Assembly: GCA_037137395.1 (NCBI GenBank)
Contig: JBAXKK010000006.1
Location: 1-51,655, forward strand
DNA: 51,655 nucleotides
Reading direction: 5' to 3'
Source: Elusimicrobiota bacterium
GTDB lineage: Bacteria > Elusimicrobiota > Elusimicrobia > Elusimicrobiales > UBA9959
This document shows positions 27,601-36,600 of the stretch, in pieces (position 1 is the stretch's first letter; the number at the start of each line of letters is the position of its first letter). Made by a program: the position numbers.

Positions 27601-30600
27601 CCCGGCGGCGAACCCAAGCCCCTGCCTTTCAGCGTGCCGGCACAGATAGATTGGAACGCCGGCAGTCCGTGGGTCAGGCAAACCTATCAGGAGATCCTTG
27701 CGGAGACTAAGAAAGTACGGGCCGAGATGGGCGATTACGATATGGCTCCTCTCTGGCCGGCTAACGGCGAAAAATGGGCGGGTTATACTCTTACGTCAAA
27801 GACCAACCCAGGTCTTAAAAAAGCCGTTTTCGCCAACGTGGCTGTGGACGGGACCGCTGTCAGCATTCCCGCGTACGGTGTCAACTCCTGGCTTGCCCCC
27901 GGGGATTACCGGATAATCAATATTAAATAATTTGCTACAATAAGAGCAGTGGTGGGGGTGCAGTTTCCCGTATTTCGTTCATATTTTAACCCAGGGCTGT
28001 CAGACGGCCCGGGAGAGGCTATAGTGCTGCGTTCAAATCCGCATCTCATAGAGATTAACGCCAGGTTGTGGCTAAAGACGCTAAGGAAGAAGTATTCCCT
28101 GGCGGAGATGACGCTTTCCTCTATTCCGGAGGAAGAATGGCTGGAGTTGAAGCATCTGGGGTTTGATATCGTGTGGATGATGGGCGTATGGAATCCCAGT
28201 CCGGAGGCCGCCGCTATAGCGCGCGCCGATGTGCGGCTTCAGGCTGAAATAAAAAAGATTTCTCCGGAGTTAGGCGTTGACGCCATCGGCTCATCCCCGT
28301 ACGCCATCCAGGGCTACAGACTTAACCCGGAACTCGGCTCTGAGTGGGAACTTAAAGCGCTTAAGGAGAAGTTGAATTCCCTGGGGATGAAGCTCCTGCT
28401 GGATTTTGTTTCCAACCACACCGCCAGGGATAACCCCTTTCTGCATAAATGCCCGGAGTGTTTTATAACGGGTTCCGAAGAGGATTTTAAGGCCCATCCC
28501 GACTGGTTCTTTGAGACGGATATAGACGGAAAGAAAACCTACGTGGCTTATGGCCGCGACCCCAATTTCCCGGCCTGGACGGATTCGGCGCAGTTCAACT
28601 ATTTTAACCCTCAAACACGCGAGAAGAGGCTTGAGCTGCTGCTTGAGCTGGGCGAAGTATGCGACGGAGTGCGTTGCGACATGGTGATGCTCACGCTTAA
28701 CGATATTCATGAGAGCACCTGGGGCTGGCTGCTTAATAAAAAAGGTTTCAAAAAGCCGCATGAGGAGTTCTGGAAGCATGCGATCAGGACCGTGCAGGAA
28801 AAGCATCCCCAATTCATATTCCTTGCCGAAGTTTATTGGGGGCTTGAGTGGCAGGTTCAGCTGATGGGTTTCGATTATACTTACGATAAGATAACATACG
28901 ACCGCCTGCGCTTTATGGGCGCCGAAGAGGTCCGGGGCCATCTGCGCGCCGAAAAACTTTACCAGAAGCGTTCAGTGCGTTTTATTGATAACCACGATGA
29001 GATCCCGTCTATAGAAGCTTTCGGACGTGCTAAGGCTTTCGCTGCCGCCGTCATAATCTCCACTATAAAAGGACTCAGGTTCTACAACGATTCGCAGCTG
29101 GAGGGATTGCGTCACAAGGTGCCGCTGCAGCTCAAAGAGATATGGGAGCACGTTCCTGACATGGCCGTGTGCAAGTTTTATGAGAAGCTTTTAAAGATTG
29201 TGGACCATCCCGCTTTCCACGGGGGAGAATGGAACCTGCTGGACGTGCGCCAGTGCGACCCGCAGAACCATTCCAACAAGAATATTATGGCCTGGAGCTG
29301 GGCCCAGCGCCGCACGATAAAGATCGTGGTGGTCAACTATTCAAACACGCCGTCCTGCGGCACGGTCAACATCTCCGTGAAAAGCACCGGAGAAAGCACC
29401 GCTTTATTTGAAGAGCTTTCGGACCGGTTCTTCACTTTCGAGGCTGAAGATCTCGCTGAAGGTCTGCGCCTCCGTGAAATGGCTCCCTACGCCGCCACTA
29501 TCTTCGACGTGGAATTCTAACTACAGTGGTTAGTGCTCAGTGGCCAGTGGTCAACAACCAATGGCTAAAGATTATTAATTTGGTTTTTTTACTATCCACT
29601 AACCACTGTCCACTGATCACCGCAAAAGGAGCTGGCCTCCTTTTGCTATGGTTCTCTTGCCAGGGTGAAAACCGCTGTGCCGGCTGCCTCTGAGTTTTCA
29701 AGTGCCCGGGCAAGTTCATCGGTTGTGGCAAGCGTTGTGGCTACATCGTCCACTATTAGTATTCGCCGGCCCTTAACCAGTTCGGGTTTGACTACCTTAA
29801 AAGTTTCTTTGACGTTTTTTAGCCGCTCTTTTTTTGATAATCCTGTCTGCGACGGTGTATTCTTCACCTTTTCCACCGCCCCCTTAAGCACAAACAGATT
29901 CTTCTCACGCGCCAGAACTTCGGCCAGTAGTTCCGACTGGTTGAAGCCGCGTTCGCGCTCTTTCGCCCTGAAAAGCGGGACGGCTATGACGAAATTATAA
30001 TCCTTGAGTTCAGGACATCTGTCATAAGCACGAACCAGTTCCATGCCCAGAGATTCAGCCAGATCCTTCCTGCCGCGGTATTTGAAAGCGTGTATGAGCG
30101 ACCTAAGCTCGGGATTGAAGGCGAAAGCTGAGCGCACCAATTCCACCTTCAGCCGGGCGCTCTTCTGGCCGCGACAACTAAAGCAGTACTCGCCGCCGGA
30201 ATCCAGCGGCAGGCCGCATTTTATGCAGCTTGGCCCGGTTATCGGTTCAAGCGAGCCCAGGCAGGCCGGACAGAGAGGTCCTGTGTCCAGGTAATGCAGA
30301 TCCTCTTTGCAGTGCGCGCAGGTTTTAGGTAGTAAGACATGAAGCAGATATTTTCCGATACTTTTAATGTTTAGAGGCATAGCGGTTCAGATGTAAAGCA
30401 ATTTAGAGGGTGGTATTCCTTAATTTTATTCTCCGCTTCCTTGCGTCTAAACTGCTTTGCGTCTTTGCATCATTAAAATTGGAACGTCAGCGTGCTGCCG
30501 GCCTGATAGGAGATATATTCCTCCTGTTTGAGGAAGTTGTGCCAAAGCCGCTGGAGTCCGGCGTTGAAGGTAAGGCGCAGATTCTTGGCGGCTTCATAGT

Positions 30601-33600: not shown

Positions 33601-36600
33601 GAGGGTAAGCTATGGAAATTTCTGAGGAAATGCTGAAATCGTAGTTTACGCTTAAAACCTGCTGGGTGCCATCCGAGGTTGATCCGGCGTTTATGTCCTG
33701 CTCTTTGACGTCCTGGCTGTTCCAGTTTAATGCGCGAGGGTCCGCCGGTCCGTAGAGTGAACCGAGCGGGTTGGCGGCTATCTGCCAAAAATTGGCGTCC
33801 AGGGAAGGTGAGTCGTCCTGCTTGATTCCCTCCATGTTATCTACAAGCGCGTTGTCGTTGAGGTTGGGGTTAAGCCGCGACTGCGCCACTTCGCCGCCAA
33901 GCGTGGTCCTTAAACCGAATATGTTAAGCGCTTTTAGCTGGGCGTCGCCCTCATAGACCAGCATGCTGTTTGTGAGATCGGTGACATTGGGTACGGTATT
34001 AGATTTTATGCCCCCCTGGTAGAGCAGTGTGCTGCCGACCGAGAAATGCTGGCTCAGATCGTAAGAAACGCGGCCGCCGACCATGGATTGGTTGCCTATG
34101 CCGCCGAAGGGGGAGACTTCGTAAACGATCTCGATCTTAGAGTCCTGCCTTATTCGGTCCGGGTAATAAAAGGTAATGAAGCCTGAGTCGTAGTCTATGA
34201 AATATTCTTCATTGCGGTTTATCTTGACTCCGTCCACGCGCACGTTTTCGGATTGCACTACGATACTGGGTTCCAGTATGAAGGTCTTGAATCTGTAGGA
34301 ATACTCCACGCGGAATATGCGTTTAGAGACCGGTGCGGCCGAATATATCTGCGCATCAGGCTGGATGCCGTCCGAGGTGAAGATCTGCTTCAAATTAAAT
34401 ATGCCCTGCTCAAAGTCCACTTCTATGGTGTCGGGATATTTCGGCATGTTGTTGGCAAGAGTGGATAAGACTTCGTTGCGGTTCAAGTCCTGCACCTTCA
34501 GCGTGAAATTTCCGCGCCCGTCGTCGCGCACTATATTTGTCTGTCCGATGGGGTAGTATGTTTTAAGCTCTCTATTCCATCCCGCTTCCTGGGAATTGGG
34601 CACGATCTGGATGTCGTTGGGCGTTTTGATGAGTTTGTAAAGATTGGTGCCGCCGATGGTGAGAGTTGTGGAGGATGTATTCTGGGAGAGCCGGGTCCCA
34701 TTGCCGTTCTCAAAGTCTATAATTACCACATCCTGCGGGTTCAGAGTTCGGTTGAAGGTTACGATACCCTTGATATAATCCATGACATAGTCTATGCCGG
34801 GGTTCATAATCTGGAAGCGCCCGGTGTAGGATGAGGAGGGCACGGCCAGGTCGTCCGCGCCCATGCCGAACACCGTTACGCCATCGACTATCGCCTGGCT
34901 TTGCTGGTCTATGTAAATGCGCTCCGACCCGGACTGTATGGGGAGACGGTTCAGATTTCCGAAAGTGACATCGTAGTATTTGCGCCGGAGATAATTGGTG
35001 TCAAGTATGTCCACGCTCTGGAACTGTGTGTTGCCGGTAAACTGTTTGGTTTTGGTCAGACCTTTGGTGCGCGAGCCGACGAAGGTGAATTTGAAACGGC
35101 TGGTCTTTAGGTCGGCGCGGATGCCGAAAAGCTGCTTGTTATATGAGACGAATTCGGTGGCGGGCAGCGACAGGTCTATGTCGCCGAAGGAAACATTCTG
35201 GACCACTTCGTTCGGATCGCCCTGGTAAACCACGGAGATATCCTGCTTGTCCAGCTTCGTGTCGTCGTAGTCTACGTTCACGGAGATCTTTTGTCCGACC
35301 TTGCCCTGCATGCGCACCTGCATCTGCTGCGTGATCTCAAAAAGGCTGAGCGCGCGCGGCCGGCTGACCGCGGTTTGGTCGTTCACGTAGCGCTTAGAGC
35401 TGTAATTGAGTGATATCACCTTGCGGCCGGTGACGGAAAGCGAGGTTCCCGAATCCTTAAACTCCAGCTCGGGCTGCGGGCCGAGCGGGGTTTCAGTTGA
35501 TATGGCGACTTCCTGGATGGGCTTAAGTTCAACGCGGTTGAAGCGCCCTGTTTCTATCTGTTCCCTGACGTCATTCCATGAATCGGAGGAGTAGCCGATT
35601 GGCATGATGGCGTCCAGATTTGGTCCCTCTCCAGCCGCGTCCTCTTCCTCACCCGCGCTGAGCAGCCGGTCGGGGGTAGCCCGGTCCAGAAGGAGAAAGC
35701 GCGCGGTGCCGGTTGAAGGGGTGGCGAGGTAGGACTCCTCTGACCAGGCTAAGCCGGGCAGGAGCGTCAGAGATATAAATAAAAGGCTTAAGCTTTTTTT
35801 CACTTTAACCGGGGGCTCTCATCATCGCGTCAAAATAGTAAACTATATTATAATATAGTGTAATATACGCAGGTTACGGATTTATTAGCAAACCAAGCGG
35901 GTAGACTGCGTCAAGAAAGGCCATTATACTGAAGAAAGAGCGGGCCGAAGGCAAATCAGCCTGAAAAGGCGGACCTGATAAACTTCAGCCGAACGGCATA
36001 TCTTGCTAACCCGAAAGTTGCAGTTGCCCGCAGCTTAAATAATCCGGCAGATATAATAATAGAATAATAAGATGCGCATTCCTATATCCCAAAAATACAT
36101 CCTCCAGGTCTTTTCGCGTTTCCTGGCCCTTTCGCTTTTCGTTTTTGCTTCCATTTTCGTGATGGTCAACTTCGTGCAGATAGTCATCCAGGGGGCTTTG
36201 AGCGGGTTTTCCTTCTATTTCCTTTTCAAGAGCATCATCTATCTCCTGCCCAATATACTCTCAATGTCGCTGCCGCTCTCCTTCCTGATGGCCGTGCTGC
36301 TGAGCCTGGGCCAGCTTTCCCAGGAAGGCGAAATCGTGGCGCTCAGGGCCGGAGGATTCTCTTTCACCGAGATCATGGCGTCTATTTTCTGGGCCTCTGT
36401 AGCCGCTTCAGTAATATTGCTGGCGGTAAATAACTGGTTCGGGCCGAAAACGCTGAAACGCTCCACCGATTACACGCTCTCAATGATAAACCGGGTGACC
36501 AGAGTGGAACTGAGGCCCCGCACTTTCCAGAAGGTTTCCGACTGGGTGATATATTCGGATGAAGTGGACGCGCTGTCAAGCGGGCTTAAGGGTGTCAAGC

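What a model noticed while it worked through the whole genome (the two positions that open the first line are those of the whole stretch)
30473..35803. SprA-type T9SS translocon homologue in Elusimicrobiota, without PorKLMN
g00395 (1776 aa, no Pfam/NCBIfam/Swiss-Prot row, 'hypothetical' in all sources) is a homologue of SprA/Sov, the 36-strand outer-membrane translocon of the type IX secretion system, which current literature treats as restricted to Bacteroidota/FCB. The genome also has 17 PorV/PorQ-like barrels and at least 14 proteins ending in a T9SS type-A C-terminal sorting domain, but no GldL/PorL, GldM/PorM, GldN/PorN, PorP/SprF or PorU catalytic domain. The protein is single-copy in nearly all Elusimicrobiota sampled, so a pared-down T9SS-like export route is a phylum trait.
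Evidence so far: NCBIfam TIGR04189 (Sov/SprA) E 1.4e-32, 112 bits, below its 200-bit cut, which is why it is unannotated. Profile of 21 Elusimicrobia homologues (A4) against all PDB sequences hits only F. johnsoniae SprA (6h3i/6h3j, E 6.5e-18). AlphaFold model of residues 640-1776: Foldseek top four hits are SprA chains 8gl8_A, 8gl6_A, 6h3i_A, 6h3j_A, E 3e-33 to 1e-28, TMq 0.5 over ~1600 columns; next hit E 3e-7. tblastn-type search: 140 of 151 phylum genomes, 29 of 29 families, one copy each. Absences in six frames of this genome: calls 85, 86, 91, 92, 93, 94; CTD and PorV counts: calls 80, 83, 94. PorV/PorQ family (NF033709): 143 of 151 phylum genomes at E<=1e-10 (101 over the curated cut), 9 to 13 or more [...]
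(Added by a program. Inside this text positions count along the whole contig: contig position 1 is position 1 of the stretch shown here. "Call 12" and the like, gene names such as g00115 and contig names such as C1 are that model's own, and its searches are not shown. The text may have been shortened before it was handed on; [...] marks where a part breaks off. The agent that wrote the report below was given it as the finding of a first reader that could run no searches.)

Follow-up and report, generated by a model that had tools for sequence, protein, structure and literature searches.

The report
Motor-less type 9-like secretion pore
This Elusimicrobiota gene encodes a true relative of the giant outer-membrane pore of type 9 protein secretion, and it occurs with tagged cargo proteins, most encoded beside their own carrier barrel, but without the ring and motor thought to power that pore, in bacteria where reviews say the system is absent.

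Summary
Confirmed and extended. The 1776-aa ORF (30473-35803, minus strand) is a SprA/Sov homologue. A 33-sequence profile hits only SprA in the PDB (E 1.7e-32), both modelled halves match SprA first, and three relatives pass the curated SprA cut-off. It matches 149 of 161 phylum genomes. It also occurs in records titled FCPU426, Firestonebacteria, Desantisbacteria and UBA9089, so it is wider than one phylum. In this genome 14 of 18 CTD-tagged cargo genes are followed by a PorV/PorQ-family gene; a modelled carrier-CTD pair scored 0.94 against 0.00 (like complexes are solved). Ten small-genome relatives that lack intact sprA also lack strong PorV matches and intact CTDs. The PorK-type domain is missing from 32 of 42 sprA-bearing genomes with working controls. 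GldL, GldM and GldN were not found, but those searches had no positive control. Best reading: a translocon with one carrier per cargo, uncut tags and no dedicated motor. Export is untested. The models suggest 38 barrel strands against SprA's 36. The scan had noted this system before on other DNA.

The parts
30473..35803 (-). SprA/Sov-family outer-membrane translocon homologue, 1776 aa
35741..35803 (-). Signal-peptide-like N-terminus (about residues 1-21)
   Evidence: read from the translation; no predictor was run
35069..35446 (-). Predicted barrel strands 1-7 (residues 120-245), SprA_N-like region
   Evidence: model of 105-1230; aligns to SprA 150-267
34088..35068 (-). First predicted extracellular cap insert (residues 246-572)
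   Evidence: aligns to SprA 435-544 and 700-780
33869..34087 (-). Predicted barrel strands 8-11 (residues 573-645)
32408..33868 (-). Second cap insert (residues 646-1132), with CBM11-like beta-sandwich domains
   Evidence: VIA-align Z about 15, rmsd 2.5 A, 152 aligned to CBM11 6r31; aligns to SprA from 1157 on
30476..32407 (-). Predicted barrel strands 12-38 (residues 1133-1776), ending in Phe
   Evidence: model of 600-1776, mean pLDDT 85; all strands ungapped or nearly so across 33 homologues
35804..36071 (.). Divergent intergenic region between sprA and lptF, with sigma-70-like matches on both strands (9 of 12; consensus matches only)
36072..37184 (+). lptF-like LPS export permease, a conserved upstream neighbour, mostly divergent
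   Evidence: lptF or lptG in 73 of 80 loci with room upstream
37295..38386 (+). lptG-like LPS export permease
29646..30380 (-). comF/GntX-like gene, a conserved downstream neighbour; no functional link shown

Best explanation
The protein is the pore of a type 9-like export route that has no PorKN ring, no PorLM motor and, in most genomes, no sortase. Cargo with a Sec-type signal folds in the periplasm. Its C-terminal tag (type A CTD/FlgD-Ig-like, basic residue at -6) enters the barrel and binds the loops of a PorV/PorQ-family barrel docked at the side. Cargo and carrier leave together. The tag is not cut, so the cargo stays on the surface held by its own carrier, as PorZ is held by PorQ. Because most cargo genes bring their own carrier gene, carriers need not be recycled, and release is most likely passive or competitive rather than motor-driven. 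Shown by computation: homology, fold, gene pairing, co-loss, absence of the PorK-type domain, a carrier-CTD model. Inferred: export itself, carrier docking on the pore, surface retention and the energetics.
For: Homology and fold; hhalign to an annotated Bacteroidota SprA, probability 99.9 over 975 columns; three relatives score 275, 205 and 203 bits against the 200-bit SprA cut-off. Pairing: 14 of 18 CTD genes have a PorV-family gene 10-779 nt downstream, one more ends 13 nt from a contig end; random sets of 18 genes gave at most 3 in 10,000 draws; with the unbiased TIGR04183 set it is 9 of 12. Other genomes: 10 of 14, 4 of 8, 3 of 8, 1 of 1. sprA-CTD-porV in one run in L072 and L082; a CTD gene near sprA in 28 of 80 loci. 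Co-loss in genus g26: the 10 genomes without intact sprA have no PorV match better than E 1e-5 and no intact CTD, while the 12 with sprA have PorV in 12 and CTD in 11; two carry decayed sprA remnants. Carrier-CTD model: 0.94 against best control 0.00, runs agree in at least 97% of contacts, partner pLDDT at least 88; the mark was reached by 116 of 157 solved and 2 of 215 mismatched pairs; the -6 Lys touches a carrier loop. No FGE-sulfatase domain in 32 of 42 sprA-bearing genomes, single-contig ones included, with 3 of 14 controls ringing. Peptidase C25 in only 6 of 67. Three carriers tested all score higher on PorQ than on PorV.
Against: No export, expression or localisation data. In F. johnsoniae the carrier-substrate complex stalls on the translocon without the motor (PMC10994853), so a passive route needs a difference I have not shown. 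GldL, GldM and GldN searches had no positive control, and HMMs miss real orthologues in this phylum (LptD: against 96, 119). The complex pass may come from likeness to solved SprA-PorV-CTD structures. Pairing is weaker in family f12 (3 of 8 and 4 of 8). Four sprA-less genomes outside g26 keep PorV-family matches, and the family rings in Bacteroides thetaiotaomicron. The g26 losses are related genomes, five of them only 83-85% complete. VIA-align margins over unrelated barrels are small (Z 17.7 against 17.2; 18.2 against 16.4), though aligned lengths are over twice as long. The lateral opening was not seen, as only halves were modelled.
Confidence: 0.66

Rival explanations
1. The same export route, but powered by a dedicated motor and hub too diverged for GldL, GldM and GldN models to see.
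For: The energy need of the Flavobacterium translocon (PMC10994853, PMC12635249). SprA itself scores under its cut-off here and LptD models fail. The GldM and GldN searches rang nowhere, controls included.
Against: PorK/GldK rest on the well-conserved FGE-sulfatase fold, which is not found in 32 of 42 genomes. A crude topology screen of this genome listed 11 two-helix proteins and 21 gene pairs, none recognisably gldL-gldM by eye. No conserved unknown membrane gene was evident beside sprA in the loci compared.
Confidence: 0.14
2. The same export route, with release driven by a borrowed general motor (TolQRA or ExbBD-TonB).
For: An ExbB/TolQ-family gene is in 53 of 55 genomes. This genome has a TPR-exbB-exbD-exbD-tonB cluster whose TPR protein hits the SprE/PorW model weakly, 82.5 bits against 250.
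Against: The motor gene is kept in 13 of 14 genomes without intact sprA, so it is not dedicated. Single-contig genomes G066 and G031 have one match each, in tolQR-tolA or tol-pal context. The TPR hit is generic.
Confidence: 0.12
3. The barrel works in LPS or outer-membrane biogenesis together with LptFG, and the CTD-PorV pairs use another path.
For: lptF or lptG lies upstream, mostly divergent, in 73 of 80 loci across several lineages. Pfam LptD models find nothing in this genome.
Against: The genome has an LptD-like protein, found in 21 of 22 genomes tested, including 10 of 10 g26 genomes without intact sprA. sprA is lost together with CTDs and carriers.
Confidence: 0.04
4. A SprA-derived barrel repurposed for uptake or as a scaffold, with CTDs and PorV-like barrels acting only in the periplasm or as porins.
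For: The cap holds CBM11-like domains. The CTD also matches the generic FlgD_ig family. A comF-like gene lies downstream.
Against: All 18 CTD matches are at the extreme C-terminus. Cargo are proteases and large repeat proteins. The modelled interface uses the loops and the terminal Lys as in T9SS (PMC10994853).
Confidence: 0.04

Closest known systems
SprA (Flavobacterium johnsoniae; PDB 6H3I, 6H3J, 8GL6, 8GL8) / Sov (Porphyromonas gingivalis), the T9SS translocon
   Same: Collinear sequence homology from strand 1 to past strand 15, with the same 7-strand, insert, 4-strand, insert layout in my models; top fold match for both halves.
Type A route: PorV shuttle plus TIGR04183 CTD cargo
   Same: CTD at the extreme C-terminus with Lys at -6 in 15 of 18 and Arg in 3; PorV/PorQ-family barrels, 12 single matches over cut-off.
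   Different: In F. johnsoniae one PorV serves all type A cargo (PMC12618676). Here there are 17 paralogues, mostly downstream of a cargo gene, several fused to TPR or peptidase C14 domains, and no peptidase C25.
Type B route: PorP/SprF carriers encoded directly downstream of their cargo
   Same: The same gene logic: cargo gene, then its own carrier, suggesting stoichiometric use (PMC12618676).
   Different: The carriers here are PorV/PorQ family and the tags are type A-like; PorP/SprF reached no cut-off in 5 genomes.
PorQ-PorZ anchoring pair of the P. gingivalis attachment complex
   Same: An uncleaved CTD protein held on a PorV-family barrel (PMC7463736, PMC11285876). Three carriers tested score 98-110 bits on PorQ against 80-85 on PorV; two CTDs hit the PorZ tail.
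   Different: There it is one accessory pair; here it appears to be the rule for diverse cargo.

Membership tests
SprA/Sov translocon family | Sequence homology to SprA along the chain | tested here: met
SprA/Sov translocon family | TIGR04189 curated cut-off (200 bits) | tested here: not met
   112 bits; relatives L072, L073 and L077 pass, four other relatives do not
SprA/Sov translocon family | Very large capped beta-barrel with SprA fold | tested here: met
   two overlapping models, SprA first in Foldseek and VIA-align
SprA/Sov translocon family | 36 strands and a lateral opening | tested here: inconclusive
   38 strands counted from two half-models; no full-length model, so the opening was not seen
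Type IX secretion system | PorV-family carrier | tested here: met
   17 genes
Type IX secretion system | Cargo with N-terminal signal and C-terminal CTD | tested here: met
   18 CTDs, all terminal; the 11 with intact 5' ends have a hydrophobic N-terminal stretch, weak in 2
Type IX secretion system | PorK/GldK ring subunit (FGE-sulfatase fold with RGCF Cys) | tested here: not met
   domain not found in 32 of 42 sprA-bearing genomes with controls ringing; this genome's five matches are not among the ORFs with an RGC[FY] motif
Type IX secretion system | PorL/GldL, PorM/GldM motor and PorN/GldN | tested here: inconclusive
   GldM 0 of 67, GldN 0 of 67, GldL 0 of 68 over cut-off with three 18-bit hits; no positive control rang
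Type IX secretion system | PorU sortase (peptidase C25) | tested here: not met
   none in this genome; 6 of 67 genomes match
Type IX secretion system | SprE/PorW, SkpA, Plug, PorG, PorT | not tested
   only a generic TPR hit to the SprE model and a crude motif screen for Skp that printed nothing
Type IX secretion system | CTD-dependent export across the outer membrane | not testable with these tools
   needs experiment; the carrier-CTD model passes

The most novel reading that the evidence does not exclude
Pore, carrier and tag form an old, self-sufficient secretion system that works without proton-driven machinery and is shared by Elusimicrobiota and several neighbouring candidate phyla. The Bacteroidota ring and motor would be a later addition, against the printed inference that T9SS arose as part of the gliding machine. 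The pore would be a 38-strand barrel, larger than SprA, the largest known single-chain barrel.
Probability: 0.4. Interest if true: 0.9.

Novelty: new variant of a known kind. Interest (0 to 1): 0.76.

Why it matters
Reviews state that T9SS genes are absent outside the FCB group (PMC11285876), and that release of carrier and cargo from SprA needs the GldLM motor (PMC10994853). A 2025 paper infers that T9SS first evolved within the Bacteroidota gliding machinery (PMC12635249). A conserved, purged-when-unused SprA-PorV-CTD module without ring or motor in other phyla challenges all three points. It offers a three-gene system in which to test what the motor is for. It also gives a likely export path for many large unannotated surface proteins: the 18 CTD genes take 2.7% of this genome and 7 of its 20 longest ORFs.

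Tried and rejected
Single-sequence PDB search: nothing. A dedicated ExbB/TolQ motor lost with sprA: it looked so in 5 genomes and failed in 55. SprA as an LptD substitute: rejected. G085 as a counter-example with many carriers but no sprA: its sprA match is cut by a contig end. Joining contigs C42 and C11 into a fifteenth pair: no end overlap. A positive control for the motor models: a Parabacteroides record with sprA held no GldL match, so none was obtained. A locus scan with the 47-sequence alignment: no conserved stretch. Names for 20 intermediate homologues: one read 'Elusimicrobiota', one 'Caldiserica', the rest gave no lineage. RNA evidence: no RNA holder listed. Bootstrap tree: timed out, so clade support rests on FastTree alone. 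The Atlas held no model of the protein. Literature searches found no paper placing SprA or T9SS in Elusimicrobiota; the library holds only open-licence papers and preprints, and no supplements were read.
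Full report
Observation. The window holds a 1776-aa ORF at 30473-35803 on the minus strand, with a signal-peptide-like start and a C-terminal Phe. 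Pfam finds nothing. NCBIfam finds only TIGR04189 SprA, at 112 bits against a cut-off of 200. Named close homologues are 'hypothetical' proteins of Elusimicrobiota, and three of the 120 listed carry PF14349 SprA_N. Neighbours are lptF and lptG (divergent) and a comF-like gene.

Homology to SprA. A profile of 33 homologues hits only F. johnsoniae SprA among 177,635 PDB sequences (E 1.7e-32), in collinear stretches at SprA 150-267, 435-544, 700-780 and 1157-1602. A search of longer proteins reaches annotated SprA of Zixibacteria (E 2e-21), Ignavibacteria, Marinimicrobia and Latescibacterota. hhalign against an annotated Parabacteroides SprA gives probability 99.9 over 975 columns. Of seven relatives from this clade scanned, three pass the curated cut-off at 275, 205 and 203 bits. 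Models of residues 105-1230 (pLDDT 81) and 600-1776 (pLDDT 85) both return the four SprA chains first in Foldseek, with a gap of over 25 orders of magnitude to the next hit. VIA-align also ranks SprA first but by small Z margins: 18.2 (rmsd 6.6, 681 aligned) against 16.4, and 17.7 (rmsd 9.2, 945 aligned) against 17.2.

Anatomy. The models give 7 strands, a cap insert, 4 strands, a second insert with CBM11-like domains, then 27 strands: 38 in all. All are ungapped or nearly so across 33 homologues and most show clear alternation, though strand 7 is weak and some cap strands alternate as well. SprA has 36 and is called the largest known barrel (PMC7463736 and bioRxiv 10.64898/2026.03.07.710327, passages). 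In one superposition SprA's last residue falls at the end of my strand 36 (row 4). This is a count from secondary structure of two half-models and may be wrong.

Distribution. The protein matches 149 of 161 phylum genomes and all 30 families. Three matches are weak fragments; 11 of the 12 misses are in family f12. Most genomes show one match; the multiple matches I could see are pieces of one frame, and 21 matches were not listed. A profile of the N-terminal part matches 763 cluster representatives at E 1e-30 or better. A degenerate pattern scan of genome contigs stopped at 120 loci, all of which hit the SprA profiles. Record titles include FCPU426, Firestonebacteria, Desantisbacteria and UBA9089. 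All 26 genomes picked from these loci have PorV-family genes, with 4 to 62 matches each. In a FastTree of 70 sequences, 52 formed one clade (support 0.93) apart from the 18 I had grouped as FCB-type. Many rows are unnamed and the root is arbitrary, so no direction of descent follows. lptF or lptG lies upstream in 73 of 80 loci with room, which suggests long vertical descent; these loci include kin and a few repeats.

Partners. The genome has 17 PorV/PorQ-family genes and 18 proteins with a type A-like CTD, every one at the extreme C-terminus. Lys is at -6 in 15 and Arg in 3, matching the conserved Lys that contacts PorV (PMC10994853, parts 1-2 of 11). Fourteen of the 18 CTD genes have a carrier gene 10-779 nt downstream. 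My profile was seeded from those 14, so the unbiased figure is 9 of 12 by TIGR04183. Random genes gave at most 3 of 18. Other genomes give 10 of 14, 4 of 8 (7 of 8 counting upstream carriers), 3 of 8 and 1 of 1. CTD and carrier distances correlate weakly: rho 0.43, p 0.0006, n 14; rho 0.35, p 0.035 after dropping two recent duplicates. In L072 and L082 sprA, a CTD gene and a carrier gene form one run, and 28 of 80 loci have a CTD gene nearby. Cargo include S8 and M6 peptidases and Kelch, TIG and carboxypeptidase-regulatory repeat proteins. A cognate carrier-CTD pair modelled with alignments scored 0.94 against a best control of 0.00. The runs agree in at least 97% of contacts and partner pLDDT is at least 88; the mark was reached by 116 of 157 solved and 2 of 215 mismatched pairs. 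The -6 Lys touches a carrier loop. Like complexes are solved, so this shows likeness, not binding.

Co-loss. In genus g26, 10 genomes lack intact sprA. None has a PorV match better than E 1e-5 and none has an intact CTD; three have broken or partial ones. Of the 12 with sprA, 12 have PorV (E 2e-12 or better) and 11 have CTDs. G022 and G149 carry decayed sprA remnants, the latter beside lptF. The four sprA-less genomes outside g26 have no CTD match but keep PorV-family matches. These genomes are kin, and five of the ten are 83-85% complete.

What is missing. GldM 0 of 67, GldN 0 of 67, GldL none over cut-off in 68, peptidase C25 in 6 of 67 and not here, PorP/SprF none over cut-off in 5. The Gld searches had no positive control. 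Two Pfam LptD models missed this genome's LptD-like protein, so such blanks are weak. The firmer result is the FGE-sulfatase domain, the core of PorK/GldK (PMC12635249 mentions the SME core; the family link is recalled). It is not found in 32 of 42 sprA-bearing genomes, among them three single-contig ones, while it rings in 3 of 14 controls and five times here. The ExbB/TolQ family is kept in 13 of 14 sprA-less genomes, so it is not a dedicated motor.

Mechanism. Most likely (0.66): Sec export, CTD capture inside the pore by a carrier at the side opening, joint exit, and lasting display on that carrier. No sortase and no recycling are needed, and release is passive. The gene logic is that of type B cargo and PorP/SprF (PMC12618676, part 1 of 9), carried out with type A-like tags and PorQ-like barrels. 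Rivals are a hidden motor (0.14), a borrowed Tol/Ton motor (0.12), an LPS role (0.04) and a non-export role (0.04). Export of some kind is thus about 0.9 by inference; none of it is shown by experiment.

Comparison with print. PMC11285876 (passages) says T9SS may occur in other FCB phyla and that its genes are absent from other phyla. PMC4793230 (passages) found it only in Bacteroidetes. PMC12635249 (passages and part 1 of the Discussion) infers an origin within the gliding machinery. I also read passages of PMC11205867, PMC8754138, PMC12204202, PMC5317091, PMC11495043, PMC3482391 and bioRxiv 10.1101/2023.11.21.568195, and a term search in PMC7323717 gave no hits; none placed SprA in Elusimicrobiota. 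Nine searches found no such paper; subscription papers and supplements were not seen. I recall, untested here, that some non-Bacteroidota FCB genomes have sprA without gldLMN, which would be a precedent for the motor-less state. The protein belongs to the SprA superfamily by homology and fold, but the system fails tests for a canonical T9SS (PorK, PorU), so I file it as a new variant. Earlier notes of this scan describe the same system in other genomes and a CTD-carrier pair in this one; I treat them as leads, not support.

Noticed in passing
G000:C124:1417-3492 (L202:418-2493): An LptD-like protein of 691 aa that both Pfam LptD models miss; homologues in 21 of 22 genomes tested, and two copies in G022.
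   Followed up: yes
G000:C58:6345-13777 (L198): Cluster of a 1100-aa TPR protein, exbB, two exbD, a TonB-domain protein and an unknown 324-aa protein; the single ExbB/TolQ match in G066 and G031 lies in a different, tol-like context.
   Followed up: partly
G000:C4:25720-26943, C25:18948-20258, C18:19875-21137: A family of about 410-440 aa barrel-like proteins with no Pfam or NCBIfam hit where tested, two of them in cargo-carrier operons; at C25 it follows a 480-aa gene hitting Lsa33/LipL45 models.
   Followed up: partly
G000:C27:4224-7295 and C112:1480-4536: PorV-family barrels fused to long C-terminal parts; the C27 one has CARDB and peptidase C14 domains, and an ORF6N gene sits between it and its cargo gene.
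   Followed up: partly
G000:C16:29519-33557 and C52:14846-16501: A 178-aa almost CTD-only protein precedes a 1146-aa protein without Pfam hit whose N-terminus resembles that of the gene after the C52 carrier; possibly an adaptor that carries untagged cargo.
   Followed up: no
G000:C31:16448-19313: A motA-like gene, a coiled-coil gene and a motB/OmpA-like gene; flagellar genes were not looked for.
   Followed up: no
L037:108-3656; similar in L031, L039, L048, L141: A distant PorV/TraF_2-like barrel gene and a CTD-tagged protease gene (M6 in L037) sit just beyond lptFG upstream of sprA in several lineages.
   Followed up: partly
L117:11860-14048, L148:1-2139, L104:11980-14048, L076:1-1925: A secreted-looking protein, with fibronectin type III repeats in L117, directly follows sprA in several FCPU426-type loci.
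   Followed up: no
window 41409-49084: Three B12-binding or plain radical SAM genes with a family 9 glycosyltransferase, a PMT-type glycosyltransferase and a methyltransferase, possibly an envelope glycan modification cluster.
   Followed up: no
G000:C52 contig end (17711-18547): The frame begins with a run of QTDR repeats from a short DNA repeat at the contig end; may be an assembly artefact.
   Followed up: no
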